This document shows, piece after piece, positions 3,170-47,256 of a DNA stretch of 64,000 nucleotides; positions within the stretch are counted from its first letter, which is position 1; the number at the start of each line of letters is the position of its first letter. This DNA is from an uncultured bacterium (GTDB taxonomy: Bacteria > Patescibacteriota > Microgenomatia > Levybacterales > UBA12049): the NCBI GenBank assembly GCA_963826535.1, contig CAWGXL010000011.1, positions 64,809 to 128,808 of the forward strand, read 5' to 3'. The notes beneath the pieces are model-generated. The model saw nothing but the letters and a program-made list of their open reading frames with translations, made no database searches and had not been told where the DNA came from. Made by a program: the position numbers and the translations under genes.

Positions 3170-3172
3170 GCA

Positions 3173-5107
3173 ATGATACAACTGCAACGTTTTTCCGGAA
3201 ATCCAATATTTTTACCTAATGCTGAGAACTCATGGGAACATGAAGCCACTTTCAATGGCTGTGTTGTTAAAAAGGATAAGACTTATCATATGGTTTACCG
3301 CGCGCTCTCCGAGACCCAAAATTATCAGGGAACCTCTATGAAAGTTTCTTCTATAGGATACGCTCAAAGTCCTGACGGACACAATTTTGGTTCCCGCAAA
3401 CTCCTTTTTTCCCCTACGGAAGAATGGGAAATATATGGTTGTGAAGATCCTAGAATTACCTATTTTGATGGGAATTATTATATCTTTTATACCGCTCTGT
3501 CTGTTTTCCCTTTTACAGCATATGGTATAAAGTTAGGCTTGGCTAAAACTAAAGATTTTAAGACATTCGAAAAACATCCTGTTACTACTTTTAATTCAAA
3601 AGCTATGGGGCTTTTTCCTGAAAAAGTGGGGGGTAAAATGGGGGCATTACTTACAGCACACACTGATCTTCACCCGGCAAAAATCGCATTGGCTCTCTTT
3701 GACCGGGAAGAAGATATGTGGTCGCCATATTTTTGGGAAGATTGGTATGAAAATATTAATGAACACATTATTCATCTCCTGCGTGATCTGCGTGATCAAA
3801 TAGAGCTAGGTGCCCCCCCGATTAAAACAAAAGACGGATGGCTTGTAATTTATTCTTATATTAAAAATTATCTGTCTGAAAATAAAAATTTTGGGATTGA
3901 AGCGGTATTACTGGATGGAGATGATCCGAGAAAAGTTCTTGGCAGAACAGAATATCCCATTTTGATTCCTGAGGCTGAATATGAATTGAAGGGTGAGGTA
4001 TCGAATGTTGTTTTCCCTTCGGGAGCTTTGGTGGAGAATGACACGCTCTCAGTTTATTATGGGGCGGCAGATACAAGGATCTGTGTTGCCACTTGTTCTT
4101 TATCCGTATTACTGGATAGTATACGTCCGGAAAAAAAATCGTTCAGTATAAATTATAATGAACATGAAGGTAAATTAGTTCGCTTTGAAGGTAATCCAAT
4201 TATTAGTCCTGTATTGGAACTGGATTGGCAAGCCAGTGGTACTTTTAATCCGGCGGCAATTTATGAAGACGGGAAAGCACATATTCTCTATCGGGCTCAA
4301 TCAAGAGATGGTACTTCGACTTTTGGCTATGCTTCAAGCCGCGACGGGCTTCATATTGATGAGAATCTAGATTATCCTGTGTATTTCCCGCGTGTTGATT
4401 TTGAAAAAAAACCACATCCTTTTGGCAATTCCGGCTGTGAAGATCCGCGTCTTACTAAGATCGGAAACCGTTATTATGTACTATATACAGCTTATAACGG
4501 TGTTAGTTCGCCACGAGTCGCGCTTTCTTCTATAGGCGTTGATGATTTTTTAGCAAAGCGCTGGAATTGGGATCTGCCAAAACTTATTTCGCTTCAGGGA
4601 GTTGACGACAAAGATGCTTGTGTTGTTGAAGGAAAAACGAAAAATACTTATATTTGGTTTCACCGGTTGGGTGACTCTATTTGGATCGAAATTACAGATC
4701 ACATAAATCTTGATGAGAATAATGCGCTTGCCGGAAGCGTTCTTGTCTATCCCAGACCCGATAAATGGGATAGTCTCAAACTTGGCATTGCGGGGCCACC
4801 ATTTGAGACAAAGGAGGGTTGGTTACTTCTTTATCATGGTGTGTCAAAGGAGGGTTCCGTATATAAAGTCGGTACGTTACTTTTGGACTTGCATAATCCT
4901 ACAAAGGTTCTGGCGAGAATTGATGAGCCTATTTTTGAGCCGGAAATGCCTTATGAGCTTGAAGGGCAAATTCCAAACGTTGTTTTTCCCTGCGGTCAGG
5001 TTATTATTAAAGACATGCTGTATGTTTATTATGGAGGAGGAGATAAAGTTGTTGGTGTAGCGACAAGCCCAGTTGAGAATTTGCTAAAAAAACTTTTGAA
5101 GAGATAA
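3173..5107 (+). CDS. Two-domain glycoside hydrolase family 130 (DUF377) protein, paralog of the upstream gene
   Basis: GCEDPRITYFDGNYYIFYTA, YYGAADT and GAPPIKTKDGWL repeated twice. 3-nt spacing from the upstream paralog implies an operon. Confidence 0.7.
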   Translation: MIQLQRFSGNPIFLPNAENSWEHEATFNGCVVKKDKTYHMVYRALSETQNYQGTSMKVSSIGYAQSPDGHNFGSRKLLFSPTEEWEIYGCEDPRITYFDGNYYIFYTALSVFPFTAYGIKLGLAKTKDFKTFEKHPVTTFNSKAMGLFPEKVGGKMGALLTAHTDLHPAKIALALFDREEDMWSPYFWEDWYENINEHIIHLLRDLRDQIELGAPPIKTKDGWLVIYSYIKNYLSENKNFGIEAVLLDGDDPRKVLGRTEYPILIPEAEYELKGEVSNVVFPSGALVENDTLSVYYGAADTRICVATCSLSVLLDSIRPEKKSFSINYNEHEGKLVRFEGNPIISPVLELDWQASGTFNPAAIYEDGKAHILYRAQSRDGTSTFGYASSRDGLHIDENLDYPVYFPRVDFEKKPHPFGNSGCEDPRLTKIGNRYYVLYTAYNGVSSPRVALSSIGVDDFLAKRWNWDLPKLISLQGVDDKDACVVEGKTKNTYIWFHRLGDSIWIEITDHINLDENNALAGSVLVYPRPDKWDSLKLGIAGPPFETKEGWLLLYHGVSKEGSVYKVGTLLLDLHNPTKVLARIDEPIFEPEMPYELEGQIPNVVFPCGQVIIKDMLYVYYGGGDKVVGVATSPVENLLKKLLKR

Positions 5108-6083: not shown

Positions 6084-6635
6084 CTAAATAGGATCGTCTT
6101 TTAATCTTAGGAGCCATCCGATAAAAGTTGACAATGGATGGAGAAAGAACCAAATAATAAAAAGTATTAGATATAACTCCATACTTAACCTTATATATAG
6201 AGCAGTAAAGAATATGCCTCCTAGGATATAATCAATTTGATCTGCAGGGAACCATGATTTACCGGAGGGAATTTTCAGTTGTCTTTTTAAAAAGCTTTTG
6301 AGAGCATCTCCGAATAACGCACCAAAAGAAGCCAGAAATCCAAAATAAATCGGATTTATAGTATTGTAATTAACAAAAGATACATCTCTGAAAAATTGAA
6401 AGTTATTATATAAAATCGTTTGTAAATATACTGTCACAATACCCGCCACAATTCCAGCTATAAGACCACGTATTGTTTTATGATCGCCCAATATTCTTCG
6501 TTGACGGAACTTCTTATAGAAATCCATTGGATAAGAAAGCTTTTCCAAAACGGGAATCTTTCTCGCAAGAATAGGGGCCAAGTTTCCGAGTCCGGCCGGA
6601 AGAAAGAACCATAGAACAGAGAGGATGATTTTCAT
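6084..6635 (-). CDS. CdsA/CarS-like CTP-transferase family integral membrane protein (CDP-alcohol/CDP-archaeol synthase-like)
   Basis: 183 aa with 5-6 TM helices. GDHKTIRG motif resembles the KTxEG/KTxRG signature of phosphatidate cytidylyltransferase and DUF46 enzymes. Confidence 0.4.
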   Translation of the reverse strand: MKIILSVLWFFLPAGLGNLAPILARKIPVLEKLSYPMDFYKKFRQRRILGDHKTIRGLIAGIVAGIVTVYLQTILYNNFQFFRDVSFVNYNTINPIYFGFLASFGALFGDALKSFLKRQLKIPSGKSWFPADQIDYILGGIFFTALYIRLSMELYLILFIIWFFLHPLSTFIGWLLRLKDDPI

Positions 6636-11911: not shown

Positions 11912-14900
11912 TTAATTTACTTTCCCATCCGGCTGCATAGCAGTGCCCCCTCCGCCAAAATTTACAGTCCCATTTACTCCATTAGGTGCTTGATATGGAG
12001 GCTGAATACCAGGCTGGTTATTCATTGGCGGTGGTGGAGGTTGGTTTTGAGGTGTACCATTGGCTGGCTGTGGAACATTATTTTGTACAGGAGAGTAGTT
12101 GCCTTGAACCAGAGGCGGATTTTGCCCAGTACCAGACGGTTCAGGATTTTGCGCCGGTGGATTGTTGGGTTGTGAAGGAGGCTGACCTGACTGTCCGTCG
12201 GTAGGATTTTGCTGTCCCTGGCCAAACGGATAGTTCTGACTTGGGTCTGCGGGATTTGTCTGTGGGTTTACCGGCTGACCTACTTCTCCGGCAGGTGGGT
12301 TTTGCCCGGTACCAGGTGGCACCTGGTTATTTGTTTGCTGCGACGCATCCTGGGGTTGAGCTTGCAATTCAGCGGCGGAAGTATTGTTTGATACGTTGTC
12401 AATTGCATTTAAAATCATGATCGCTGTTTCGTCATTTTGTGTTTTTGCTTGATTGAGCTGCTCGATCAATTGCTGAATTTCTTCACTTGTTACCGCATCT
12501 GTCAAATTAAGCAAAGACGTTGCTAATTTATTACCTTTTTGGCTGGCTTCATCTACTTTGGTATGTAAATTCGTATACAACTCTTTTTCATCAGCATTTT
12601 CCGCGGTGATTGGATTGGCAATAAGAAGTAATGGCACTTTTATTTTCATTATTTCATTTTGCTTGATTGCATCCTGAATTGTGGCCAGTATCTCGGCAGC
12701 CAATGGATCGCCTTGATCTTTGGCCTGTTGTAGTTGGGTTTGTAATTGTTCTATGTCGTCATCAGATGTAATATCTGTAATATTTAAAATTTGTTCCGCG
12801 AGGGGATGATTCTGTTTCCCTGCTTCGCTCAGTTTGTCATAAAGATCTGAGAATTTCCTTTTATTTTCAGGTTCGGCTAAATAAAGCGGGTTGCCGAGTT
12901 GCTTCATGAACTTTTTAAATTTAGTTGTGGGATTGGCTTCTAATGCTTCTTCCGAAGCTTTGCTAATTTCACTATTCATGAGTGCGAGAATGTCGGTTGC
13001 CAGTTCGTTTTCAGTATCTTTCCCTTTGTTCAAATCTTCCATTATTTTTTCAATTGCCGATTGAGGCGAATCGGGTTTTAGTTGAAGAATTGCGGTGGCA
13101 ATCACATTGTTGTTCTGGCTTTCAACTACAACTTTATCATGCAGTTCTTTGAATTTATCGCGGGTAGCTACCGATGCTACTGTTTCCGGATTAACTATTG
13201 ATAAGAGAATTTTCTTTTCCCGCTCGATTGCTTTCAGCTGTTGGGCTATACCCGCTGCCAGGTCGAGTATTTCTTTTGCTAACTCGTCACCTTTCTCTTT
13301 CGCATCATTAAGTTTTTGTCTTATATCGCTAATCTCCTTGTCAGGCGTAGACGCGTTTACGGCAAGAATTGCGGCATAAACCGGATTTGCTCCAGTGCCT
13401 GCTGTGACTGTTTCTTTAGTTGCTTTATCTACTTCTGTGCCTGCTGCGGCAGCTTCTGTTTTTGCTTTATCTGCCTCTGTGGGCGCAGGAGTTACATCTG
13501 CGGTTGCTTTATCTATTCCAGTGCTTGCTGAGTTTGTTGCATTGCTTGCTGCGACAACTTTATCGTGTAATTTCTTGAATATTTCCAGGTCGAATCCAGC
13601 TGTTACATCTTCAGGCTTGGCAATTTTCTGTAAAATTACCTTGAATTCGCTATCGGTTAACAGCGTTACATCGCCTGCTTGTCCACCCTTGTTGAAAATG
13701 AATGCATTGATATTTTCATTATAGTCAATAACGATTGTATCCCCCGGCACGAATTTTTTGGAAATGATGGCGAGTGCGATCGGATTTTCTATGGTTGTTT
13801 GGATAAGACGGCGCAGGGGTCTGGCTCCATAGACAGGATCGTATCCATCTTTGGCTAGTTTAGCAATTGCTTTCTCAGTAATTTGTAAATGGAAGCCTTG
13901 CTCCTTTAATAGCCCGGCAGTCTTGGCGATACCAAGCCGCACTATGCCCGCCATGTGCTCAGGGCGAAGCGGCTTAAATATAACTACCTCATCGAAACGG
14001 TTGAGAAGCTCGGGACGTAAGAACTTAATCAGCTCATCTTTGACGATTTTTTGCAGTTCTGTAAATTGCTTGTTTAATTGTTCAGTTGTTAGTTTGACCT
14101 CTTTACCTTGTTTACTTAGGAATTGCTGGATGATAGCGCTCCCGATATTTGAGGTACATATAACTATAGTATTTTTAAAGGAAATAACATTTCCCTTGTT
14201 GTCTGTTAGTCTACCGTCTTCCAGAAGTTGTAATAGAATATTAAAAACGTCGGGATGAGCTTTTTCAATTTCATCAAACAAAACGATTGAGTATGGCTTC
14301 TTTCTAACCGCTTCTGTCAGTACGCCTCCTTCTTCATATCCAACATAGCCCGGAGGCGCGCCTATAAGCTTGGCAACTTCATGCTTTTCCATAAACTCGG
14401 ACATATCCAGACGAGCCATGGCATCATCGCGCCCGAATAATAATTCGGCTAAGGTTTTGGCAAGTTCAGTTTTTCCTACTCCAGTGGGACCAAGAAAGAC
14501 AAAAGAGGCGGTTGGTCTCTGGCCTGATGCGAGTCCAATTCTTCCACGTCGCACTGCTTCGGAAACCGCTACTACAGCTTCTTCTTGGTCGATAAGTCTC
14601 TGATGAATGCGTTCTTCGAGTTTTAGCAATTTTTCACTCTCGTCTTCAGTCAATTTGGTAATGGGAATTCCTGTCCAAGCGCTGACGACTTTCTCAATAT
14701 CGGCTTTTTTCACATCGCTGTCACCCCGTTTGCCTGTGTCTACCTGCAGTTTAACTTCAGCGCATCCCTCATCAAGCAAATCAATAGATTTATCAGGTAG
14801 AAAACGTTCTCCGATATATTTCTTGGCTAGTTTGATTGATTCTTTGAGCGCGTCATCCGGAATTTTAACACGATGGAATTTTTCATATTTTGTACGCAGC

Positions 14901-16276
14901 ACCTTCATCATTTCGAAGGCATTTTCATCACTTGGTTCTTCAGCGGTTACAGGTTGGAAACGGCGCTCAAATGCTTTATCTTTTTCAAAATGCTTGCGGT
15001 ATTCGGTTGTTGTGGTCGCGCCTATAATTTGCAACTGGCCGCGGGCCAGATATGGCTTTACGATATTGGCCGCGTTCATGCCCTCGCTTTCTCCCGCACC
15101 CATAAGAGAATGAATTTCATCTATAAACAGAATAATTGTTCCATTACTACCTAGGACTTCTGTAATTACCCCTTTGATTCTTTCTTCGAATTCGCCTCTA
15201 TGACTTGCACCAGCGACTAATGATGCAACATCCAGTTGAAAGATTCTTTTATTTAATATATCTTTGGGGACAGCATTAGCAACGATTTTTTGCGCTAACC
15301 CTTCGACTATTGCAGTCTTTCCCACACCTGTCTCGCCAATAATAATCGGATTGTTTTTGGTCCTGCGTAAAAGGATATGGAGGATGCGGTCAATTTCTTT
15401 TTCGCGCCCTGCGACAGGATCAAGTTTGCCTTCGCGGGCTTCAGCCGTTAAGTCAATGGCGTATTTTTCTAAAGTTGATTTCCTACCATAACCGCCGGTA
15501 GTTGATTTTGAAAGTTTATCTACAACTACTTCTTTTTTCAGACCAAGTGTTTGCAAAGTTTGTGCGGTTGAGTAATTAGGACCAAAAAGGACTACCAGAA
15601 TATCTTCCGGTGAAATGAAAGTTGATCCACGCATTTTCGCGTCCCGATAAGCTTGGTCAAAAACCTGCTGGGACACATTACTAAGTACCGGCTGACCTTT
15701 GTATGTTCCGACTCTTTCTTTGGCTTGAATTTCTTTGGAAAGCCTGCCTACATCAACCGCAAGTTCACCCAGTAATTTACTTATTTGTTGATCATATAAC
15801 AATCCAAATAATAACTGGTCAGGTTCAATAGATTGCTGATGGATTCTTCTAGATTCTTCTTGTGCGTGCGTTAATACCAGACTTGCTCTTGGATCCAGAT
15901 GTGAAAGGGCTGACGTATCTACTTTTGCAGAGGTGTTACCAAGGGCCGGATTTGTCTGTCCTTTTGGTAATCCGGCGCCAGGATGTCCTTCCGGAGGAGC
16001 TTGTCCTGCTTGTCCTGGGGGTGGATTCCCTGCACTAACAGGTGCTTGATTTTGTTGAGGACCGGCACCCGGTTGAGGAGGCGGTTGTTGTGCTGAATCT
16101 GGCGGTGGTGGCTGCTGATTATTTTGCTGAGGTTGATTTGACCCCTGTGGCGTATTTGCTTGGGCATCCTGGTTATTATATTGTTGATTTGGATCTTGAG
16201 GCGCCGATTGAACAGGTGGCGCCTGGGCTCCTTGTGCTTCCCCGTCTTTTTTTTGATTGAATAATTTTCCAAACAT
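11912..16276 (-). CDS. ClpA/ClpB-type double-AAA+ unfoldase with Pro/Gln-rich disordered tails and a C-terminal about 90-aa helical-repeat region
   Basis: Clp_N-like domain. D1 has Walker [16 protein letters not shown] and Walker [10 protein letters not shown]2 has [35 protein letters not shown] and GARPLRR sensor-2. The linker between D1 and D2 is too short for a ClpB M-domain. No [IVL]G[FL] ClpP-docking loop is seen after [11 protein letters not shown]. Residues about 900-1290 form repeats homologous to the neighbouring giant protein. N- and C-terminal roughly 125-160 aa are P/Q/N/G-rich. Confidence 0.75.
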
Positions 16277-16306
16277 ATTGGCTATATATTAATTAAATAC
16301 TATTAT

Positions 16307-19300
16307 TTACTTCTTTGCAATCTCTTCTTCTTCAGAAAGCGCTTTTGGTTCTTCTTCTTTTTTTATTCCCACTTCAACTTTTTCCTCTTTTTCATCTCCC
16401 AGCTTCAACACTGAAATTACTGTTTTTGCGGCTTTAAGTTTGACGTTGAGATAATCACTTATTTCCTGATAAGAGAATCCTCCCAAAAGCAGGAAAGGTA
16501 GAATGGTTCCCACTTTCTTGAGTCCATCATTTTTCTTATCTGTCTCAGGTGCGAGTAAAAGTGCGAGGGTTTCTTTTATTTCCTCAATCTCTTTCGTAAT
16601 CCATTCTATCCTTCCTTGTTTGTCGTCATTGAAGCCGAAAGGTACAGGAAGAGTCCGATAATTTTCTTCCCACATCTTTTCGATTTCCGTATAATCTTTT
16701 TGCGTAACGGATTGCAGTTTATTACTTTGGGGTACATCAGTTGCATTAATTTGAGAATGTGGCGAAACAGAATGTTTTGCTGCGGTTAAAATACTATCCG
16801 CAGTCTTGTCGCCTTTTTGACTTTTTTCGATAAGCTTCTGGCGTAGATTTTCTATTTTTTGCCGATCAGCCGGTATTTGGACATTTGTTGGGGTGGCGAG
16901 GTTTGCAAGTATTACATGCTCTTTGTGCATTTCTGTGATTTGAGATTTATCCCTAGCCAGAGACATGGCTTCATAACGGACTATATCTTTCATGGTCGGG
17001 AGCTTTAGTTCAACCATAGCCAGGATTTCATTGGAGACCTCGGGTGTGACAATGTTGGTGGCCGCAAATGAGGGGGTTGATATTTCAACTGAAGGCGCTT
17101 CTATATTGACTGCCATGGTTTGGGCTGCTTCCGCGTGTTTGGTTGCAACAGATACTTTGGTTTCTTCGTCAAGGGAAATGGATTTGAGAACATCTTTGGC
17201 TGCATCTTGTTTGGTTTGTAGATAAGAGACGATTTCGGATTGAGAGAAGCCTCCGACTAAAAGGAAGGGCAGAATGTTGGCTACTTCAGAGAGTCCCTGA
17301 TTTACTTTATCCTGATCAGCAGAGTTTAAGAGATTGGTTAAATTACCAATTTTCTCAATATCATCCTTAATCCATTCAGTTCTTGTTCCGGCCATGCCTT
17401 CAGGGACTTCCATATTATTGTAGTTTTCTGTCCACATTTTCTTGACATCTGCTAATTCTTCGGGGGTGACAGTTTGGATGCGGTTGGTTGAGGGAAGAGA
17501 TATTGCCTGTGGCAAAGCCCCTAAAACAGAAGTAGCTACAGATTCACCTTTAAGTTTTTCTTCTTTTAATTTATCACTTAATTTTTGGATATCTGCGCTG
17601 GTTGTTGATTTGTTCACGCTCAAGAGAGAAGTGGCAAGCTCATTGCCGCTTTGACTGGATTTGGCTATGGAATCATGTAATTTGGTCAGGCGCTCACGAT
17701 CAACCGGCGAGGAGATAGAGGCCGGATTGGCGATTTGTTGCAAAACTTGTCTAACTTTGTTGGTCTGTACAGATTTATTAACTGTTGACATAACAGAGGT
17801 AGCTAGAAGATTTGCGCCCTGCTGGCCTTTGTCAAGTTGTTCTCGGATCTTTTGCAGATCTGCATTTGAGGTACTATCGTTTACAGAAAGAATAGTACTG
17901 GCAAGTTCATTCTTCTTATCTTTTTCCTTAACTAGTATCTCATGTAACTTTGTGAATGCAACACGTTCCGATTCAGAAGTGACTGAAGCCGGATTGACGA
18001 TTTGCAGGAGAACGTTTTTGAAGTCTGATGATTGAGTTGCGCTAAAAGCCGCTTTTTGCATAGCAGAACTGGCTGCATTTAAAACTATATCCGCAGTTGC
18101 GTTGCCTTTTTGGCTTTCTTCGAGGAGTTTTTCCCGGAGCTTATCAAATCTAACTCTTTCTGTACTGACAGTAGCTGACGCAGGGTTGGCAATTCTTTCA
18201 AGTGTTTCGCGAACTTTTTGCACCTCTCCAAGTTGCGATTTGTCTCGGGACATTGACATGGTCTCAAAGCGGGCAATATCACGCATTCTGGGTAATTTCA
18301 ATTCAACCATAGCCAGGATTTCATTGGAGACCTCGGGTGTGACAATGTTGGTGGCCGCAAATGAGGGGGTTGATATTTCAACTGAAGGCGCTTCTATATT
18401 GACTGCCATGGTTTGGGCTGCTTCCGCGTGTTTGGTTGCAACAGATACTTTGGTTTCTTCGTCAAGGGAAATGGATTTGAGAACATCTTTGGCTGCATCT
18501 TGTTTGGTTTGTAGATAAGAGACGATTTCGGATTGAGAGAAGCCTCCGACTAAAAGGAAGGGCAGAATGTTGGCTACTTCAGAGAGTCCCTGATTTACTT
18601 TATCCTGATCAGCAGAGTTTAAGAGATTGGTTAAATTACCAATTTTCTCAATATCATCCTTAATCCATTCAGTTCTTGTTCCGGCCATGCCTTCAGGGAC
18701 TTCCATATTATTGTAGTTTTCTGTCCACATTTTCTTGACATCTGCTAATTCTTCGGGGGTGACAGTTTGGATGCGGTTTAAGGAAGGGACACTGATGCTT
18801 GCCTGCTGGGCGGCTGTTGCAAGTACATCTGCGGCAACCGATTCACCTTTAGTCTTGGCTTCATTTAATTTGTCACTTAATTTTTGGATATCTGCGCTAG
18901 TGGTTGATTTATTTACAGATAACAGCGAGGTCGCAAGTTCATTTCCCTTCTGACTTTCTTTTGTCAGGGCTTCATGCAGTTTAGTCATTTTTTCTTTATT
19001 AATAGCTGTAGCTGTGGCGGGGTTGGCGATTTGTTGGAGAACGTCTTTGACTTTGGTCATGTTTTGTGATTTTTGTAAACTGCTACTAATTGTTGTAAGT
19101 ACTTGTGAAGACATAGCAGAGTCTTTTGATTGCTGGAGTTTTTCGCTGATTTTTTCAAGCTCTGTTTGTGTTGTGATATCTTTTACTTGCAAGATTTGGC
19201 CTGCTAATTGGTTGTTATTCTCTTTACTTTCGTGTGCAAGCATGTCGTGGAGTTTGGTCATCTTTTCACGATCAGATGAATTGGTAGCTGAAGCCGGGTT

Positions 19301-21523
19301 GGCGATTTGCTGGAGTACGCTTTTAACTTTGGTCATGTTTTGTGCTTTCTGCAGGCTACCATTGATTGTAGAAAGCAACTGCGAGGACATGGTAGATTCT
19401 TTTGATTGCTGGAGTTTTTCGCTGATTTTTTCAAGTTCTGCTTGTGAAGTAGTATCTTTTACTTGCAATATAGAGGATGCAAGTTGATTATTATTCTCTT
19501 TACTTTCATGTGCAAGCATGTCGTGGAGTTTGGTCATCTTTTCACGATCAGATGAATTGGTAACTGAAGCCGGGTTGGCGATTTGCTGGAGTACGCTTTT
19601 AATTTGGGTAGCTCTGACTGCATTGCTTACCTGAGAGGCTGCTGAGTTGCCAACTGTGCTCTCTTTTACTAATTGATCCCTTATTTTGTCAAGTTCATTT
19701 GCTGTGGTTTTGTCGTTAACAGAGAGAATTGAGCTGGCTAATTGATTACTCTTTTCTTTACTTTCCTTCGAGAGCATGTCATGGAGTTGAGACATTCTCT
19801 CACGATCTACAACATTTGATGTTTGGGCCGGATTGGCAATTTGTTTTAGTATGTTTCTCAAATGTGAATCTGAGGCTTGAACGTTTCTTTGTGATTGATT
19901 ATTGGCGGCTGAATTTATAGCATTTAAGATAGTTGTCGCTACGAGATTTCCCTGTTGAGCCTCTCTGACTATTCTTTCATTCATATTTGCATATCTTTCA
20001 CGTTCTATCGTTGAGGTAACCGCGACCGGGTTACCAATTTTTTCAAGCATTTCACTCATCTTCATTACTTCTTGTCTTTGGCTTGCGTTATTGGATGAAA
20101 GCGCGGTGTCGTATCTGGCGATATCCCGCATTGTAGGAAGCGGGATACTTGCAAAACTTAAAACTTCGGCATTTATTTGAGCATGTGGAACAGAATATGT
20201 TAGAGCGGTACCAGCTCCCTGAGTTTCTCTAATTATTTCTTTGGCTGCGCCGCCAGGCCTCATAGTAGGAGTGAGTGCAATTGGAATATTCACCGACTTT
20301 TTTGTAAATGGTAAAGTCAAGGCAGTGCCTCCAGGCTGAGATCCGGGCGGATATCCTGTAGGTGAAGATGGCGGAACCATCTTATTGCCTAATAAAGTAA
20401 CAAGGTTTTTCATCATTGCGTTATCACCGGAAAAGTTAGCAGCGTAGTCTAAAAAGATTTGCAATAAAATCCAGGGAAGTAGAATAACGATCCATAACAT
20501 TATTAGCGCAACAACATAAAGCATGAAAGTCTCTGTAAGATTAACACTGTTGGTCGGAGTAACGAACTGCCTGGGTCCTCCAAGGAGAATATTTACAGCG
20601 GTGGGATATATAATTTTAGTCGGGTCTTGAATAGCGGGATTGACGAACTGTAAGGGAATTGCCTGTCTCCACATAAATACTAAACCCTGGAGGAAAATCG
20701 CGAAGAGCGGACCATATAATAGCCAGCGGAAGAATTCTCCAATCCAAATCTTGCCAGTATTGCGAACCGGATAAAATAAAAGCAGGAGTGGGAATACCGG
20801 GGATACTATTATAAAGAACCATAAAATTATTTTTCTAATCAATAATATGCCTACCATAACATAGTACGTAAGCGCGGTTAATTTAGTCAGTAATAATGAA
20901 ATAAAGGCTGATTCAGCGTTATAATCACCAAGCAGGCGTAATCCGACAAAGTCCTGGTAGTTCCAACCTACAAAGAGTAAGTCTTGATTGGATATGCAGT
21001 CAGGGGGACAATTAGTGGTGCCTGAACGTAAGAAGAATCCTTGTATTAGATCGGTGAATTGATATAGAAATTGCAGTATTGCGTATGACAAGGCAATTAA
21101 TATCAGTACAGCAGTAAATCTGGGAATAAAACGCATAATAGTGAGACTTCTTCCTCTAGAAATTATAATTATCATGGAGGTTGCTAAAATAACCAATATT
21201 AGAAGAGGCAAAACAATATAGAGGACTATTGTCCACCAAAATTGTGCCAATGGATTAGCCGCGTTGTCGCAATTACGATCGGCTACCTTGGTTACACAAA
21301 CCCATTGGTAATTTAGCAATGTCCAGTTTAGGACGTAACCTGATCGAGCAGCGTTTTTGCCAATAAAGGTTACTTCAGGGTCTACTACCCATAACCCTGC
21401 GGCGGGGGATGCTGTTTGTTGTTGGGCCGGGGCGGGAGCTTGTGCATTGGTAACTGCTACCGGATAAACCAAGGAAACAAAACAATATATTATTGCAAGA
21501 AAAATGGGCAGAAATTTTTTCAT
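16307..21523 (-). CDS. Giant (1738 aa) polytopic membrane protein with an array of about 92-aa helical repeats; N-terminal region VirB6/TrbL-like in topology
   Basis: Signal peptide, then at least 6 TM helices in the first roughly 400 aa. Then about 10 repeats of QIANPAxxTNSSDREKMTKLHDMLAHESKENNNQLASSIL...KISEKLQQSK. A large module (IQTVTPEELADVKKMW...LPFLLVGGFSQSEIVSYL) is present 3 times, two of them identical at nucleotide level. Confidence 0.7.
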   Translation of the reverse strand: MKKFLPIFLAIIYCFVSLVYPVAVTNAQAPAPAQQQTASPAAGLWVVDPEVTFIGKNAARSGYVLNWTLLNYQWVCVTKVADRNCDNAANPLAQFWWTIVLYIVLPLLILVILATSMIIIISRGRSLTIMRFIPRFTAVLILIALSYAILQFLYQFTDLIQGFFLRSGTTNCPPDCISNQDLLFVGWNYQDFVGLRLLGDYNAESAFISLLLTKLTALTYYVMVGILLIRKIILWFFIIVSPVFPLLLLFYPVRNTGKIWIGEFFRWLLYGPLFAIFLQGLVFMWRQAIPLQFVNPAIQDPTKIIYPTAVNILLGGPRQFVTPTNSVNLTETFMLYVVALIMLWIVILLPWILLQIFLDYAANFSGDNAMMKNLVTLLGNKMVPPSSPTGYPPGSQPGGTALTLPFTKKSVNIPIALTPTMRPGGAAKEIIRETQGAGTALTYSVPHAQINAEVLSFASIPLPTMRDIARYDTALSSNNASQRQEVMKMSEMLEKIGNPVAVTSTIERERYANMNERIVREAQQGNLVATTILNAINSAANNQSQRNVQASDSHLRNILKQIANPAQTSNVVDRERMSQLHDMLSKESKEKSNQLASSILSVNDKTTANELDKIRDQLVKESTVGNSAASQVSNAVRATQIKSVLQQIANPASVTNSSDREKMTKLHDMLAHESKENNNQLASSILQVKDTTSQAELEKISEKLQQSKESTMSSQLLSTINGSLQKAQNMTKVKSVLQQIANPASATNSSDREKMTKLHDMLAHESKENNNQLAGQILQVKDITTQTELEKISEKLQQSKDSAMSSQVLTTISSSLQKSQNMTKVKDVLQQIANPATATAINKEKMTKLHEALTKESQKGNELATSLLSVNKSTTSADIQKLSDKLNEAKTKGESVAADVLATAAQQASISVPSLNRIQTVTPEELADVKKMWTENYNNMEVPEGMAGTRTEWIKDDIEKIGNLTNLLNSADQDKVNQGLSEVANILPFLLVGGFSQSEIVSYLQTKQDAAKDVLKSISLDEETKVSVATKHAEAAQTMAVNIEAPSVEISTPSFAATNIVTPEVSNEILAMVELKLPRMRDIARFETMSMSRDKSQLGEVQKVRETLERIANPASATVSTERVRFDKLREKLLEESQKGNATADIVLNAASSAMQKAAFSATQSSDFKNVLLQIVNPASVTSESERVAFTKLHEILVKEKDKKNELASTILSVNDSTSNADLQKIREQLDKGQQGANLLATSVMSTVNKSVQTNKVRQVLQQIANPASISSPVDRERLTKLHDSIAKSSQSGNELATSLLSVNKSTTSADIQKLSDKLKEEKLKGESVATSVLGALPQAISLPSTNRIQTVTPEELADVKKMWTENYNNMEVPEGMAGTRTEWIKDDIEKIGNLTNLLNSADQDKVNQGLSEVANILPFLLVGGFSQSEIVSYLQTKQDAAKDVLKSISLDEETKVSVATKHAEAAQTMAVNIEAPSVEISTPSFAATNIVTPEVSNEILAMVELKLPTMKDIVRYEAMSLARDKSQITEMHKEHVILANLATPTNVQIPADRQKIENLRQKLIEKSQKGDKTADSILTAAKHSVSPHSQINATDVPQSNKLQSVTQKDYTEIEKMWEENYRTLPVPFGFNDDKQGRIEWITKEIEEIKETLALLLAPETDKKNDGLKKVGTILPFLLLGGFSYQEISDYLNVKLKAAKTVISVLKLGDEKEEKVEVGIKKEEEPKALSEEEEIAKK
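17009..17487. repeat. Perfect about 479-bp direct repeat inside the giant gene, copy 1
   Basis: Region 17009-17487 is identical to 18302-18780 (offset 1293 nt). This was checked line by line. Antisense ORFs 16992..17225 and 18102..18518 translate identically. Confidence 0.85.
18302..18780. repeat. Perfect about 479-bp direct repeat inside the giant gene, copy 2
   Basis: See copy 1. Encodes the duplicated module VTPEELADVKKMWTENYNNMEVPEGMAGTRTEW.... Confidence 0.85.
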
Positions 21524-21529
21524 GTTTTT

Positions 21530-21829
21530 TTACTTAGCAAAACCCGGAATGTTTAAAATGTCGACTGCGAGAAATTGGAAAAAAACAAATCCAAAAATTG
21601 CGAGCAATAAACCGGCGATCGCGCAGACTATATAGCTTTTTCCAACATTGAGCTGGTGTGGTTCTCCGCGGGAAGTTAAGATTGTATATCCGCCCCAAAT
21701 TATCATTATCAATGATAGACCGGCAACAAAACCTATTCCGTAACCGTAAAATTTTTGCACAAATCCGATTGGGTCATTTGGCCAGCAGCCAAAGTCTGTT
21801 TGGATTTCATTTAATGCGCAGGCAGCCAT
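21530..21829 (-). CDS. Small two-helix membrane protein, VirB2/TrbC- or VirB3-like (pilin-like)
   Basis: 99 aa with two hydrophobic helices (GFVAGLSLIMIIWGGY and SYIVCAIAGLLLAIFGFVFF) separated by a short polar loop. 6-nt gap to the giant gene. Confidence 0.4.
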   Translation of the reverse strand: MAACALNEIQTDFGCWPNDPIGFVQKFYGYGIGFVAGLSLIMIIWGGYTILTSRGEPHQLNVGKSYIVCAIAGLLLAIFGFVFFQFLAVDILNIPGFAK

Positions 21830-21927: not shown

Positions 21928-22305
21928 TTAAGAATGCACATTATGTGAAAGGAGCTTTTTCACATTATCCACTATATCCTCGGGCGTATTATTTGACTTG
22001 AGAAGAAAGGCTTTTGCCCCCCAATTTTTTAAGAGATCTTCGGCATTGGCGTAAATATTCGTTAATACAAGAATAGGAATTTTATTTAGTACAGGATCAT
22101 TCTTTGCAAGCTTGAGAACATCAAAACCACTTACTCTCGGCATTATGAGGTCAAGAAGGACGACATCAGGCTTAAAAGACTTCATCTTTTTAATTCCATC
22201 CTGACCATCAACTGCTGTTTGAACGTCAAATCCCTCATGCACAAATTTATCACGATACATCTCAAGTAGAATTACATCATCCTCTACCAATAAAATCTTA
22301 TTCAT
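21928..22305 (-). CDS. Stand-alone CheY-like receiver-domain response regulator
   Basis: 125 aa REC domain only (LVEDD, DLIMP phospho-acceptor region). Overlaps the upstream paralog by 8 nt. Confidence 0.7.
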   Translation of the reverse strand: MNKILLVEDDVILLEMYRDKFVHEGFDVQTAVDGQDGIKKMKSFKPDVVLLDLIMPRVSGFDVLKLAKNDPVLNKIPILVLTNIYANAEDLLKNWGAKAFLLKSNNTPEDIVDNVKKLLSHNVHS

Positions 22306-22690
22306 ATTTGTCCTTTTTAGAATTACTTAAAACTTCATTTGCTTTTTTTACCACATCTTCAGGTGTTGTATTGGCTTTGATCAAGCAATAAACCGGGCTA
22401 TACTCCATAATCGCTTCAAGTACTTTCCCATCCACATTTAGATTAGTTAATACCATAATCGGAACAGTTTCGCCCCAACTGTCAGCACGCAACTTCTTCA
22501 TCATTTCCATTCCGTTCAATTTCGGTAAAGCAAGATCCAGTAAGATAATATCCGGTTTACGATCCAGTGCCAGCATTAATCCCTTCTCACCGTCTTCCGC
22601 GTTAACAGGATTAAAGTTGCTAAATTGAAATTTATCCTTATACATGTCAGCCAGCACCTGGTCATCTTCTACTATTAATACACTCTTCAT
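22298..22690 (-). CDS. Stand-alone CheY-like receiver-domain response regulator (paralog)
   Basis: 130 aa REC domain only (IVEDD, DLALP). No output domain. Confidence 0.7.
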   Translation of the reverse strand: MKSVLIVEDDQVLADMYKDKFQFSNFNPVNAEDGEKGLMLALDRKPDIILLDLALPKLNGMEMMKKLRADSWGETVPIMVLTNLNVDGKVLEAIMEYSPVYCLIKANTTPEDVVKKANEVLSNSKKDKYE

Positions 22691-22770
22691 AAAAATAACA
22701 TTAAAATCTTACTCCATTTTATACCACTCCACTTTCAAAATGCAAAATGTATAATATTGTGAAGTCCCGC

Positions 22771-25212
22771 TTAGCGTGGCGATGTGGTATTTCCAGTTTC
22801 CTGAACAAATGCAATTTCGCGTCCATTTTCAAGCTCTGTTTTTGCTTTTTTAGCAGTAGGTGTTTCAGCTTTCGGAAGAATAAAAGTAAACGTGCTTCCG
22901 CGACCTGTACTCGATTTTTCTAGTCGCACATCTCCCCCCATCTTGCGGGCAAGTTCGCGTGAAATGTAAAGTCCCAGTCCGGAACCGGCAGGCCTAGTAG
23001 ATTTATATGTACTTAGTTGGGCAAATTTTCGGAATAATTTGCTTTGATCAGCCGGATCTATTCCTGTACCGGTATCGGTAAAAGCAATATACACAAAGTC
23101 ACGCACGCGGTAATATTTGATAGAAATCTTACCCTTATCGGTAAATTTCAATGCATTACCAAGAAGATTATTAAATATATGCCTTACCCACTCAATATCT
23201 GCCTGAACTAAGACTTCCTGCTTACTTTCAACATTTATAACTACCTCTTTTTGCTGCGCAATTGGTTGCAGCGATTTAGTGACATCGTCCAGCACCGGCC
23301 AAAGAGTGAAATTAGTCAACCGAAATTCAATTCTGCCCGTTTGAAGGCGGGAAACATTTAACAGATCATTTATTAAATGAATTTGACGCTTTGCAGAAAC
23401 AGATATATTCTCAAGCGGTTTCTTAAGCTTAGAATTTACAGGTCCATAATCACCATGAAGGATCATTGAAAGGAATCCGTTAATGGCAGTCATGGGAGTC
23501 CTTAGTTCATGTGATGCCATTGAGATAAATTCATCTTTCATTCGACTAACTTCTTTCTCTTTCGTAATATCATGGAAAACCTCTATTGCTCCAAAAAGTT
23601 TATCTTCGAGAGTAATTGGTGTAACAGTAAAGCGCACAGGGAGTTTTGTTTTATCTTTTTTTACATAGTAATTAGTTTTGGATGTTACAATTTTTTTACG
23701 CTGTGAAAGCACTTTGGTCATAGGCCGCGCGTCAAGGGGCAAAATTTTACCGGTCTCATCCTCCATGGGGATTGTATCTACAAGAAGTTTGCCAACCAGC
23801 TCTTTTTCTTTCCATCCAAGAGTTTCGCAGGCAACTTGGTTGACCATTGTAATCTTCCCGTAATTGTCTGTCGCAATAATTCCATCCCCGATACTTGCAA
23901 GCATTGCCTCATCAGTTGTTGTTTCCTGAAGCATTGTTTCTTCTAAAATCTTGCTTTCTGTTATATCATGAAAGTTAATCACAACCGCGTTGACATCCGG
24001 TTCAAAGAGCAAATTTGTGCCGGTTGCTTCGACCCAAATAGTCTTTTTATCTTTCCGGATACTTTGGTATTCCACCGTTACAACACCCCTTGGTTTAACA
24101 ACCAACTCAGCAAGTTTACCCATAGTCATCTTTCTATTTGCGGCAGCTACAAGATCAAATCCGTTTTTTCCAATTAATTCTTCCGGCGAATAGCCCAAAA
24201 TTCGCTTAACCGACGGGCTTGCAAAGCTTATTTTTGAAGTCGCGTCAATGAGAACAACGCCATCAGAACTGTTTTCAATAAGCGCTTGAAATCGTTGCTC
24301 ATGCGACACCAGAGCTTTTTCACTTTTGCGGATTGCGAGAACTGTTGCGGCAAATGTCAATCCTGTAAGTGAAAAAATACCCAAAAACAGCTGTAATAAG
24401 ATGAGTGATTGATTGATAGTTGGTGCATTTGAAAATGGTCCTTGTCCGCCCAACGTAGCAAATATAGCAATTCCCGCCATAAACAGAGTTGTAACCGTAG
24501 CTCCTTTTTGTCCAAACCAAAACGCAATCCAGACAGCAATCGGAATACTCAAATAAGGATAGGGGAGAATTCCGGTAAAGACAATTACAGCAATTATAAA
24601 AAGAATAATTAGCGTGAGAAAAAAATGAAGCGCTTTTTTAAAATCAAGACGTATCCTCAGAGCACGTCCCCAAACTAAAAGTAACGGAGCCACAACAAGT
24701 GCTCCTCCCATATCTCCGAGCCACCATGTTGTCCACACCGACCAAAATTCACTCCAGCTCGCGAGCCCGCCAATAATAAGCGTTACAACACCTATATCAG
24801 CGCTCACCATCGTACTTAGCATTGCTCCAAAAAAAGTAAACTTAAATATATTTGAAACACTATCAAAAGCATGGAGGCCATTGGCAAGTTTATTTACTAA
24901 ATATGCACCAACTACGCCTTCCAAGCTGTTTCCCAGCGCAATTCCAAGAGAAGTTGCTATAGTCCCAGCTGTAGTAAAATTGACAAAAAAAGCGCCCAGA
25001 AAAATTGCAGGGACAACCCGGTTTCCAAAAAGAAGAATTGATGCCAGTGCGATGCCTGTCGGCGCCCAAATTGCTGTCGCACTTGGATTTACAGAAGCAA
25101 GTGACAGGCCTAATTTGCCCGCGGCTATATATGCTAATGCAATAATGATATTAAGAAGGATTATCTTAATCAAAGTGAGTGGCCAAAATTTGTGATGGAT
25201 CTTTTCTATCAT
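22771..25212 (-). CDS. Sensor histidine kinase with N-terminal polytopic (MASE1-like) membrane domain, two PAS domains, HisKA and HATPase_c
   Basis: About 8 TM helices, then PAS-like segments (SDGVVLID..., GDGIIATDNYGKITMVNQ). H-box FISMASHELRTPM. G-boxes GTGIDPAD and GSGLGLYISRELA. Confidence 0.8.
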   Translation of the reverse strand: MIEKIHHKFWPLTLIKIILLNIIIALAYIAAGKLGLSLASVNPSATAIWAPTGIALASILLFGNRVVPAIFLGAFFVNFTTAGTIATSLGIALGNSLEGVVGAYLVNKLANGLHAFDSVSNIFKFTFFGAMLSTMVSADIGVVTLIIGGLASWSEFWSVWTTWWLGDMGGALVVAPLLLVWGRALRIRLDFKKALHFFLTLIILFIIAVIVFTGILPYPYLSIPIAVWIAFWFGQKGATVTTLFMAGIAIFATLGGQGPFSNAPTINQSLILLQLFLGIFSLTGLTFAATVLAIRKSEKALVSHEQRFQALIENSSDGVVLIDATSKISFASPSVKRILGYSPEELIGKNGFDLVAAANRKMTMGKLAELVVKPRGVVTVEYQSIRKDKKTIWVEATGTNLLFEPDVNAVVINFHDITESKILEETMLQETTTDEAMLASIGDGIIATDNYGKITMVNQVACETLGWKEKELVGKLLVDTIPMEDETGKILPLDARPMTKVLSQRKKIVTSKTNYYVKKDKTKLPVRFTVTPITLEDKLFGAIEVFHDITKEKEVSRMKDEFISMASHELRTPMTAINGFLSMILHGDYGPVNSKLKKPLENISVSAKRQIHLINDLLNVSRLQTGRIEFRLTNFTLWPVLDDVTKSLQPIAQQKEVVINVESKQEVLVQADIEWVRHIFNNLLGNALKFTDKGKISIKYYRVRDFVYIAFTDTGTGIDPADQSKLFRKFAQLSTYKSTRPAGSGLGLYISRELARKMGGDVRLEKSSTGRGSTFTFILPKAETPTAKKAKTELENGREIAFVQETGNTTSPR

Positions 25213-46350: not shown

Positions 46351-47256
46351 CTATTCCACCCACCCTAATTCTATTTTGATCTCTTTTACAGACTTTTCAT
46401 ATTGGTCTTTGGTCAACTGATTGTTTAAGATACAATATTTTTTATTTTTTAATCCCACACAACCGAAGCAGTCGGAGCAATTTTTAAGATACGCGCCATA
46501 GTGGCAATTTGTACAACTAAAAGAAAAACTTAGAAAGACACAATTATAGCAACAGTCTGTCCATACATGTTCATAGCATTGCTCTGAAATTTTTTTTGAT
46601 TCTGTGTCCCCTCCGGCAAAATACATATCCCAACAGTTTTTCATCATGCCAGCTTGATAACTATAACCGGAGTTTTCAGCGTAATAAACCGCAAAGCACC
46701 AATAACAATTTTTTGAATCATAGATATAATTTCCATATATACAATTCTCGCTATTGAACTGCTGGTTTGCCGGATGCGGTATCTTTTCTTTTAATTCAAG
46801 CAGTTGAGCAAGGATCTTTTCCGGTTTTTCTTTCTTTAATTCTTCTAACTTTTTCAGATATTCCTCTTTCGTATATTGTTTGTTGAAAATACAATATTTT
46901 TTATGAGTAAGACCAACGCAACCGAAGCAGTCAGTACAAGAGTTTAAAAAGGCAGAGTAATGGCAATCTGTACAATTATTACATTCGATAAGGTATGTGC
47001 AACTATGAGATTTTGTACATTCAATACTTTGAAAACACTTCTCCGATTCAAAAACGGACGTACAATCTACGAGGCTCGTACCCATACTACGATTCGCATA
47101 AATACTGTCATAAAGTCTGTATGAATCAAAGCAGTAATAACTGTTCTTACTAATATCGACCATATCTACATATTCACAAGCAACATTATCTCTAATCATT
47201 ACAGCCGGCACGGGAACAGATTTTTTTAGGAGCGCATATTTTTCAAGGAAGGTCAT
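46351..47256 (-). CDS. Cysteine-rich MTFLEKY-family protein (array position A)
   Basis: 301 aa. Family N- and C-termini. 3' end and upstream region are nucleotide-identical to paralogs. Confidence 0.7.
   Translation of the reverse strand: MTFLEKYALLKKSVPVPAVMIRDNVACEYVDMVDISKNSYYCFDSYRLYDSIYANRSMGTSLVDCTSVFESEKCFQSIECTKSHSCTYLIECNNCTDCHYSAFLNSCTDCFGCVGLTHKKYCIFNKQYTKEEYLKKLEELKKEKPEKILAQLLELKEKIPHPANQQFNSENCIYGNYIYDSKNCYWCFAVYYAENSGYSYQAGMMKNCWDMYFAGGDTESKKISEQCYEHVWTDCCYNCVFLSFSFSCTNCHYGAYLKNCSDCFGCVGLKNKKYCILNNQLTKDQYEKSVKEIKIELGWVE

What the first reader, a model, noticed from the sequence alone, without database searches (positions are those of the whole stretch)
17009..18780. Perfect 479-bp direct repeat (1293-bp spacing) plus ~100-bp near-identical tandem repeats inside the giant gene
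Region 17009-17487 equals 18302-18780 exactly. Further near-identical blocks occur at about 19237-19330 and 19507-19600. A perfect repeat longer than a sequencing read's k-mer is either a very recent intragenic duplication or an assembly collapse or expansion. It would also be a substrate for RecA-mediated repeat-number variation of the surface-exposed repeat array, as at contingency loci.
Basis: seen in the sequence. Interest (0 to 1): 0.6.

Follow-up and report, generated by a model that had tools for sequence, protein, structure and literature searches.

The report
Gene-conversion tract inside a repeat protein gene
Two copies of a 159-codon module inside a giant membrane-protein gene of an uncultivated ultrasmall bacterium are identical at every base because one copy recently overwrote the other, which is an ordinary way for repeat proteins to evolve.

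Summary
The repeat is real. 17009-17485 equals 18302-18778 exactly: 477 nt, not 479, at an offset of 1293 nt and in frame. It is not a recent duplication. The rest of the 1293-nt unit is only 54-65% identical between copies, with third codon positions near saturation (about 41%).

In two related species the flanks group by position, so the duplication predates speciation. The sister species independently carries a 502-nt exact repeat over the same module. A third relative has the two copies at 72% amino-acid identity. The best explanation is intragenic gene conversion (concerted evolution) between two copies of a roughly 160-aa helical module.

The gene encodes a 1738-aa protein. It has a diverged TrbL/VirB6-like membrane domain followed by three nested super-repeats. 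It sits in a conserved trio: pilin-like gene, this gene, and a ClpB-like ATPase whose tail carries the same ~90-aa repeat.

The correct pair is 19233-19330 and 19509-19606, 97% identical.

"Surface-exposed" is unproven; loop charges favour a cytoplasmic location. An assembly artefact is unlikely, but the exact copy number needs long reads. Known phenomenon; moderately interesting host gene.

The parts
16307..21523 (-). Giant gene, 1738 aa: signal peptide, polytopic TrbL/VirB6-like membrane domain, then three nested super-repeats
   Evidence: Single ORF. Over 200 homologues in Patescibacteria metagenome-assembled genomes. No Pfam or NCBIfam hit for this protein itself. Thirteen of 27 distant homologues hit Pfam TrbL/VirB6 at the same region, and one exceeds the gathering score.
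20444..21523 (-). N-terminal membrane domain (aa 1-360), 48-81% identical across the family
   Evidence: Alignment A3. AlphaFold2 gives long helices at 91-122, 127-165, 200-240, 256-286 and 330-367, with mean pLDDT 64.8. Loop-charge analysis. No fold match in the PDB.
18302..18778 (-). Exact repeat, first copy in gene orientation: module C copy 1, codons 916-1074
17009..17485 (-). Exact repeat, second copy in gene orientation: module C copy 2, codons 1347-1505
   Evidence: AlphaFold2 models residues 8-113 as a helical bundle (pLDDT above 90 over most of it) followed by a roughly 50-aa disordered linker.
16310..16726 (-). Third, C-terminal copy of module C (aa 1600-1738), 41% identical to copies 1 and 2; not homogenised
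18296..20140 (-). Super-repeat 1 (aa 462-1076): LPxMxDIxRY anchor, five ~90-aa 'IANP' repeats, module C
17003..18295 (-). Super-repeat 2 (aa 1077-1507, 1293 nt): anchor, three IANP repeats, module C
19008..19607 (-). 276-nt tandem repeat (two adjacent IANP units), 84-85% identical, containing a 97%-identical 98-nt block (19233-19330 and 19509-19606)
21530..21829 (-). 99-aa ORF with two hydrophobic segments directly upstream; weak T4SS-pilin-like
   Evidence: Pfam T4SS_pilin E=0.0097 and NCBIfam Mbov_0395 pilin-like E=3.4e-4, both below the curated cut-offs. Present upstream of the homologue in most related loci.
11912..16276 (-). ClpB/ClpC-like double AAA+ ATPase (1454 aa) directly downstream
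   Evidence: Found downstream of the giant-gene homologue in nearly every locus with enough flank.
12377..13651 (-). C-terminal tail of the ClpB-like protein (aa 876-1300) with about five copies of the same IANP-type repeat
   Evidence: A profile of the giant protein's repeats hits this tail with full-sequence E=2.8e-56.

Best explanation
The 477-nt perfect repeat is a recent intragenic gene-conversion tract. The gene encodes a diverged TrbL/VirB6-like membrane protein of a Patescibacteria (candidate phyla radiation) bacterium. Its long C-terminal extension is built from three old super-repeats, each made of an anchor motif, a variable number of ~90-aa helical 'IANP' repeats, and a ~160-aa module C. 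Super-repeats 1 and 2 were already distinct before this lineage split from its two nearest known relatives. Later, non-reciprocal homologous recombination copied module C from one super-repeat onto the other, without a crossover, so copy number did not change. This erased every difference, synonymous ones included, over 159 codons, while the sequence on either side stayed diverged. The same process acted independently in the sister species and, more weakly, on the adjacent 276-nt tandem repeats.

Shown: exact identity, sharp tract boundaries, saturated flanks, flanks that group by position across species, and an independent tract in the sister species.

Inferred: the recombination machinery involved, that both assemblies report the true copy number, and that the two identical copies can now support in-frame gain or loss of a 431-codon unit by unequal crossover.
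For:: 477-nt exact match; identity falls to 60-72% just upstream of 17009 and to background beyond 17485.

this window's tract is 159 codons, 100% identical at all positions. Its flanks are 65% and 54% identical at the nucleotide level, with third-position identity of 42% and 41%. The sister species has a 166-codon tract at 100%, with flanks at 57% and 51%. The third relative shows 72% nucleotide and 45% third-position identity over the same region.

module C is 100% identical within each of the two species but only about 75% (amino acid) and 70% (nucleotide) identical between them.

at sites that distinguish the third relative's two copies, the flanks of copy 1 in both species match its copy 1 (24:2 and 29:5 downstream). 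The flanks of copy 2 lean towards its copy 2 upstream (11:29 and 11:27) and are weaker or ambiguous downstream (7:16 and 12:11).

the sister locus (GCA_964564035.1) is a separate assembly with an exact 502-nt repeat at offset 1296. Its boundaries lie within about 5 codons of those here.

the two tandem IANP units are 85% (nucleotide) and 76% (third position) identical within this genome, against 69-75% and 33-49% for same-position units between species.

module copy number is 1-5 and gene length roughly 700-2768 aa across the family, as expected if recombination among repeats recurs.
Against: No reads are available, so neither the perfect identity nor the copy number is verified. Short-read assemblers can smooth over a few real differences between near-identical repeats.

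Only two of 87 related loci carry exact repeats longer than 100 nt. That count is biased downwards, because short-read assemblies break at such repeats; 23 of 74 metagenome contigs end inside the gene.

The expected mosaic of copy-1-like and copy-2-like segments inside the tract is not statistically significant (p=0.057 and p=0.24).

Present-day copies in the third relative are only about 72% identical, which is low for RecA-type recombination. The converting copies must therefore have been more alike when conversion happened, or were kept alike by repeated conversion.
Confidence: 0.8

Rival explanations
1. Assembly artefact. The two copies are not truly identical, or the true copy number differs. 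Possible causes are a collapsed extra unit, one repeat path used twice, or consensus smoothing of near-identical repeats.
For: A 477-nt exact repeat exceeds typical short-read k-mers, and this gene family often breaks assemblies: 23 of 74 metagenome contigs run off inside the gene. No reads were available to test depth.
Against: The repeat has two different left flanks and two different right flanks, all in one open frame. The three-module layout with about 431-codon spacing is colinear in two relatives. A separately assembled sister species shows its own exact repeat on the same module with a different sequence. Copies as diverged as those in the third relative (72% nucleotide identity) would form separate assembly paths, not one merged path. 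At most, a few percent of real divergence could have been smoothed away.
Confidence: 0.1
2. A very recent tandem duplication of the 1293-nt unit, with the rest of the unit diverging afterwards.
For: The spacing is an exact multiple of three, and the two units share the same domain order.
Against: About 816 of the 1293 nt are 54-65% identical with near-saturated third positions. That cannot arise while 477 adjacent nt accumulate no change at all. Flanks match same-position copies in other species, which places the duplication before speciation.
Confidence: 0.03
3. Nucleotide-level selection keeps the two segments identical, for example through an embedded RNA or DNA element or an internal regulatory site.
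For: None specific. Identity at synonymous sites could in principle reflect constraint on the DNA or RNA itself.
Against: The same segment is only about 70% identical, with 37% third-position identity, between this genome and the sister species. There is therefore no conserved nucleotide-level element. The sequence varies freely between species and is identical only within a genome.
Confidence: 0.02

Closest known systems
Extended VirB6 proteins of Rickettsiales (for example Anaplasma phagocytophilum VirB6-3 and VirB6-4)
   Same: A TrbL/VirB6-type polytopic membrane domain is followed by a very long hydrophilic C-terminal extension made of repeats. Repeat number differs between strains and changes gene length (PMC7648143, read).
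   Different: There is no sequence similarity in the extensions. Here the host is a Patescibacteria bacterium, and the repeats are nested rather than a simple 3' tandem array. The TrbL match is only transitive, through homologues. A neighbouring ClpB-like ATPase carries the same repeat. The Rickettsiales extensions are reported as surface exposed, whereas charge analysis here favours the cytoplasm.
Concerted evolution by gene conversion in bacterial repeat-protein genes, such as the identical tandem repeats of streptococcal alpha C/Rib and staphylococcal SasG/Aap (from my own knowledge, not checked here)
   Same: Repeats inside one ORF are identical at the DNA level, including synonymous sites. 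Homologous recombination maintains them, and copy number changes in frame.
   Different: Those are contiguous tandem arrays homogenised along their whole length. Here two dispersed copies, 1293 nt apart, are homogenised over one module only, with old diverged sequence between them. That pattern points to conversion without crossover.
Patescibacteria type IV secretion components (VirB2-like pilins, VirB6)
   Same: A pilin-like gene next to a VirB6-like gene. PMC12102498 reports VirB2-like pilins widely in Patescibacteria. It also notes that VirB6 homologues are scarce in Microgenomatia, and suggests extreme sequence divergence as the reason.
   Different: I found no VirB4 among the neighbouring genes I scanned. 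The partner gene is a ClpB-like ATPase, which that paper does not mention (0 occurrences of 'ClpB').
Contingency loci (simple-sequence-repeat phase variation)
   Same: Repeats inside a gene that can change in number through errors of replication or recombination.
   Different: Contingency loci use units of 1-7 nt that shift the reading frame and switch the gene on or off. Here the units are 276 and 1293 nt, always in frame, so only protein length would change. No population heterogeneity was shown.

Membership tests
Gene-conversion tract / concerted evolution of paralogous repeats | Copies within a genome are more alike than same-position copies between species | tested here: met
   100% identity within this genome and within the sister species, against about 75% amino-acid and 70% nucleotide identity between them.
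Gene-conversion tract / concerted evolution of paralogous repeats | Flanking sequence keeps its position-specific ancestry, showing the duplication is older than the tract | tested here: met
   At informative sites, copy-1 flanks match the third relative's copy 1 (24:2 and 29:5 downstream). Copy-2 flanks lean to its copy 2 upstream (11:29 and 11:27) and less clearly downstream (7:16 and 12:11).
Gene-conversion tract / concerted evolution of paralogous repeats | Identity extends to synonymous sites and ends abruptly | tested here: met
   Third-position identity is 100% in the tract and 41-42% in the flanks. The exact run ends at 17009 and 17485.
Gene-conversion tract / concerted evolution of paralogous repeats | Mosaic ancestry inside the tract, or an identifiable donor copy | tested here: inconclusive
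   Maximum chi-square breakpoint test: p=0.057 for this window and p=0.24 for the sister species.
Recent tandem duplication | The whole duplicated unit is near-identical | tested here: not met
   Only 477 of 1293 nt are identical; the rest is 54-65% identical.
TrbL/VirB6 (Pfam PF04610) | Profile match above the curated threshold | tested here: inconclusive
   This protein has no hit, even at E<=1 for its N-terminal domain. Homologue P0112 scores 27.8 bits against a cut-off of 25.9. Thirteen of 27 distant homologues hit at E<=0.1 on the same region, aa ~105-280.
TrbL/VirB6 (Pfam PF04610) | Polytopic membrane domain with N-terminus outside, about five membrane spans, a conserved tryptophan in a cytoplasmic loop, and a cytoplasmic C-terminus | tested here: inconclusive
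   Long helices in the AlphaFold2 model, which has only moderate confidence. Invariant W260 and W267 in a positively charged loop. Charge pattern fits five spans plus one re-entrant segment. No fold match to any solved structure.
TrbL/VirB6 (Pfam PF04610) | Encoded with other type IV secretion genes (VirB4, VirB3, VirB8) | tested here: not met
   The neighbours scanned are a weak pilin-like ORF, a ClpB-like ATPase, response regulators, a histidine kinase and unrelated enzymes. I did not scan the whole window, and the rest of the genome was not available.
Contingency locus | Hypermutable short repeat tract causing reversible on/off switching | tested here: not met
   The repeat units are 276 and 1293 nt, all multiples of three. 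No short-unit tract was reported in the gene.
Contingency locus | Copy-number heterogeneity within a population | not testable with these tools
   No reads, and no same-species contigs. The closest relatives found share about 73% identity in this protein.

The most novel reading that the evidence does not exclude
The conserved trio (pilin-like gene, extended VirB6-like protein, ClpB-like ATPase) is a distinct Patescibacteria-specific envelope machine. In this reading the VirB6-like protein's C-terminal repeat array is a cytoplasmic docking scaffold. It and the tail of the Hsp100-type unfoldase carry the same ~90-aa repeat because they bind each other or a common partner. Homogenisation of module C would then be favoured because identical docking modules are interchangeable. 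This would amount to a type IV-like channel coupled to a Clp/Hsp100 motor rather than to the usual coupling ATPase.
Probability: 0.15. Interest if true: 0.7.

Novelty: new member of a known kind. Interest (0 to 1): 0.4.

Why it matters
The repeat itself is a clean, cross-species example of intragenic gene conversion. It also carries a practical warning. Genes of this family are hard to assemble, and their copy number in metagenome-assembled genomes should not be trusted without long reads.

The host gene matters more. It appears to be the highly diverged VirB6-type protein that a recent survey found scarce in Microgenomatia (PMC12102498). It always travels with a pilin-like gene and a ClpB-like ATPase. 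In this genome and its closer relatives the ATPase shares the gene's repeat. If that trio is one machine, it is an uncharacterised envelope system in a group of bacteria thought to live attached to other cells. The repeat array would be its most rapidly changing part.

Tried and rejected
1. Mosaic ancestry inside the tract. By eye the module looked like a patchwork of copy-1-like and copy-2-like segments. The permutation test was not significant, so I do not claim it.

3. Fold identification of the membrane domain. The model has only moderate confidence (pLDDT 64.8), with no PDB fold match and no PDB sequence match.

4. Exact look-up of the window protein's contig found nothing on record. Cluster look-up returned no names or accessions, so the source assembly and its sequencing method remain unknown.

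5. Same-species contigs for copy-number comparison. Scans of genome and metagenome collections returned only other species.

6. A first attempt to scan 61 homologues against Pfam exceeded the size limit. I repeated it with 27.

7. A literature search for a link between ClpB and type IV secretion or pilins in Patescibacteria found none in the library.

8. Weak Pfam matches of module C to sigma-70 region 4 and other helix-turn-helix families are far below threshold, and I set them aside.

Full report
**1. The observation**

At an offset of 1293 nt, the window matches itself exactly from 17009 to 17485 (equal to 18302-18778), a run of 477 nt. An independent k-mer search found the same run. It found nothing longer than 91 nt elsewhere in the 64-kb window.

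Just upstream of 17009, identity at this offset is 60-72%. Beyond 17485 it drops to background, because small insertions and deletions shift the register to offsets of 1296 and 1299.

The correct pair is 19233-19330 and 19509-19606, which is 97% identical over 98 nt at offset 276. It lies inside a 276-nt tandem repeat at 19008-19607 with 2.2 copies at 84-85% identity.

**2. Where the repeat sits**

All of this lies in one minus-strand ORF, 16307-21523, encoding 1738 aa. The protein begins with a signal peptide and a polytopic membrane domain (aa 1 to about 360).

The rest consists of three nested super-repeats. Each super-repeat has three parts:
- an anchor motif LPxMxDIxRY, at aa 462, 1077 and 1508;
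- a run of ~90-aa helical repeats marked by the motif I-A-N-P (five, three and about one copy respectively);
- a ~160-aa "module C", recognisable by QTVTPEE, KMWxENY and LPFLLxGGFS.

The perfect repeat is exactly module C of super-repeats 1 and 2, codons 916-1074 and 1347-1505. Both the tract and its offset are in frame. The third module C, at the C-terminus, is only 41% identical to the other two.

**3. Not a recent duplication**

In a codon alignment of the two copies with about 90 codons of flank on each side, the tract is 100% identical at all three codon positions. The upstream flank is 65% identical and the downstream flank 54%, with third-position identity of 42% and 41%, close to saturation. 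A recent duplication of the 1293-nt unit cannot leave 477 nt untouched while the adjoining 800 nt diverge this far.

**4. Comparison with relatives**

A protein search found more than 200 homologues, all from uncultivated Patescibacteria. Source names include Levybacteria/Levyibacteriota and Parcubacteria. The two nearest share 72-73% identity and are colinear, with the same three modules at about 431-codon spacing.

I retrieved their DNA: the sister species as L001 (GCA_964564035.1) and a third relative as L002. Three results follow:
- **Sister species.** It has its own exact 502-nt direct repeat at offset 1296, covering the same module. The boundaries lie within about 5 codons of those here.
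- **Divergence between the two species.** The module is only about 75% (amino acid) and 70% (nucleotide) identical between them, with 37% third-position identity.
- **Third relative.** It has no exact repeat. Its two copies are 72% identical.

At sites that distinguish the third relative's two copies, the flanks of copy 1 in both other species match its copy 1, strongly so downstream (24:2 and 29:5). The flanks of copy 2 lean towards its copy 2 upstream (11:29 and 11:27) and less clearly downstream (7:16 and 12:11).

Flanks therefore group by position, while the module groups by genome. This is the signature of gene conversion after an old duplication, and it occurred independently in two lineages.

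The two adjacent IANP tandem units show a milder form of the same effect. Within this genome they are 85% (nucleotide) and 76% (third position) identical. Same-position units between species are 69-75% and 33-49% identical.

**5. Is it an assembly artefact?**

I could not examine reads. Several points argue against an artefact:
- The repeat has four distinct junctions within one open frame.
- The architecture is shared with two relatives.
- A separate assembly of another species shows the same pattern with a different sequence.
- Copies as diverged as those in the third relative would form separate assembly paths and would not merge.

Two possibilities remain open. A few real differences may have been smoothed away. 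An additional identical unit may have been collapsed.

Exact repeats longer than 100 nt appear in only 2 of 87 related loci. That is an underestimate, because short-read assemblies break at such repeats. Twenty-three of 74 metagenome contigs end inside this gene.

**6. What the gene is**

The window's protein has no Pfam or NCBIfam match. Among more distant homologues, 13 of 27 hit Pfam TrbL/VirB6 at the same place (aa ~105-280), and one exceeds the curated threshold.

Directly upstream is a 99-aa ORF with two hydrophobic segments. It has weak, sub-threshold matches to two type IV secretion pilin families. Directly downstream is a ClpB/ClpC-like double AAA+ ATPase.

This three-gene order recurs in essentially every related locus with enough flanking sequence. 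A profile built from the giant protein's IANP repeats also hits the C-terminal tail of the ClpB-like protein (aa 876-1300, about five copies, E=2.8e-56). In more distant loci, the tail's best match falls inside the giant gene itself rather than after the ATPase domains.

A recent survey of type IV secretion in Patescibacteria reports that VirB6 homologues are scarce in Microgenomatia and suggests extreme divergence as the reason. It does not mention ClpB (PMC12102498).

Module C folds as a confident helical bundle followed by a disordered linker. It has no match among solved structures. A profile of module C finds only 349 representative clusters among 1.84 billion proteins, most with a single C-terminal copy. 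Multi-module proteins such as this one are therefore derived forms.

**7. Inside or outside the cell?**

Across 61 homologues, the short loops at 123-135, 230-231 and 254-266 carry net positive charge (+4.3, +2 and +2). The loops at 30-94, 157-206 and 287-332 are net negative, and the first two carry conserved cysteines.

By the positive-inside rule this gives five membrane spans plus one re-entrant segment. That is the classical VirB6 arrangement, and it places the C-terminal repeats in the cytoplasm. The same repeat on a ClpB-like ATPase, in whose sequence I saw no signal peptide or membrane segment, points the same way.

On the other side, the repeat extensions of Anaplasma VirB6-3 and VirB6-4 are reported to be surface exposed (PMC7648143). 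I consider a cytoplasmic location somewhat more likely, but this is inference.

**8. Consequences and comparison with known systems**

Two identical 477-nt segments 1293 nt apart are ample substrate for homologous recombination. An unequal crossover between them would remove or add a 431-codon unit in frame.

The family shows 1 to 5 modules and complete lengths from about 700 to 2768 aa. This window's protein also lacks two IANP repeats present in both relatives. Such events therefore happen over evolutionary time. Whether they happen within a population is untested.

This is not a contingency locus in the usual sense, because no short frame-shifting repeat is involved. The closest known parallels are the extended VirB6 proteins of Rickettsiales, whose repeat numbers vary between strains, and concerted evolution in repeat-protein genes generally.

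**9. Verdict**

Gene conversion is, with confidence of about 0.8.

The phenomenon is well known, so novelty is low. The host gene and its conserved partnership with a pilin-like gene and a ClpB-like ATPase are uncharacterised and deserve a separate look.

Noticed in passing
window 12377-13651 (-), within gene 11912-16276: The ClpB/ClpC-like AAA+ ATPase next to the giant gene has a C-terminal tail with about five copies of the same ~90-aa IANP repeat found in the giant protein (E=2.8e-56). The tail is followed by a long Q/P/N-rich low-complexity end. I saw no report of a shared repeat on a membrane protein and a neighbouring unfoldase in the papers I read.
   Followed up: partly
window 11912-21829 (-); loci L001-L087: The gene order pilin-like ORF, VirB6-like giant gene, ClpB-like ATPase is conserved in nearly all related loci with enough flank, across proteins only 40-50% identical. 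It looks like one functional unit. I found no VirB4 among the neighbours I scanned.
   Followed up: partly
window 47289-48197 (-) and 49291-50199 (-): Two 302-aa cysteine-rich paralogues with no Pfam match are 83% identical and share a 91-nt exact block (47896-47986 = 49898-49988). This may be another short conversion tract. Two further ORFs of similar size (46351-47256 and 48346-49128) lie between and beside them.
   Followed up: partly
window 13395-13481: A 42-nt tandem repeat (2.1 copies, 80% matches) lies inside the ClpB-like gene's tail region.
   Followed up: no
window 6084-6635 (-): A 183-aa protein matches the CDP-archaeol synthase family (CarS-like, E=1e-28). That is an archaeal-type lipid enzyme family in what is otherwise a bacterial genome.
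   Followed up: no
window 1349-5107 (+): Two adjacent large paralogues (606 and 644 aa) each carry a glycoside hydrolase family 130 (mannooligosaccharide phosphorylase) domain preceded by a long N-terminal region with no family match.
   Followed up: no
window 21928-25212 (-): Immediately upstream of the trio, on the same strand, are a MASE1-PAS-PAS histidine kinase and two single-domain response regulators. This could be a regulatory input to the trio, but that was not examined.
   Followed up: no
L007 1792-1887/2128-2223; L014 3243-3330/3525-3612; L046 4765-4841/5095-5171: Other family members carry shorter exact direct repeats (77-96 nt, offsets 282-336). In L014 and L046 they fall in the repeat region of the giant gene, so small homogenised blocks recur across the family. 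In L007 the repeat lies upstream of the gene.
   Followed up: no
loci L014-L087: Twenty-three of 74 metagenome contigs carrying this gene end inside it, and complete genes range from about 700 to 2768 aa. Lengths and copy numbers reported for this family in draft genomes are likely unreliable.
   Followed up: partly
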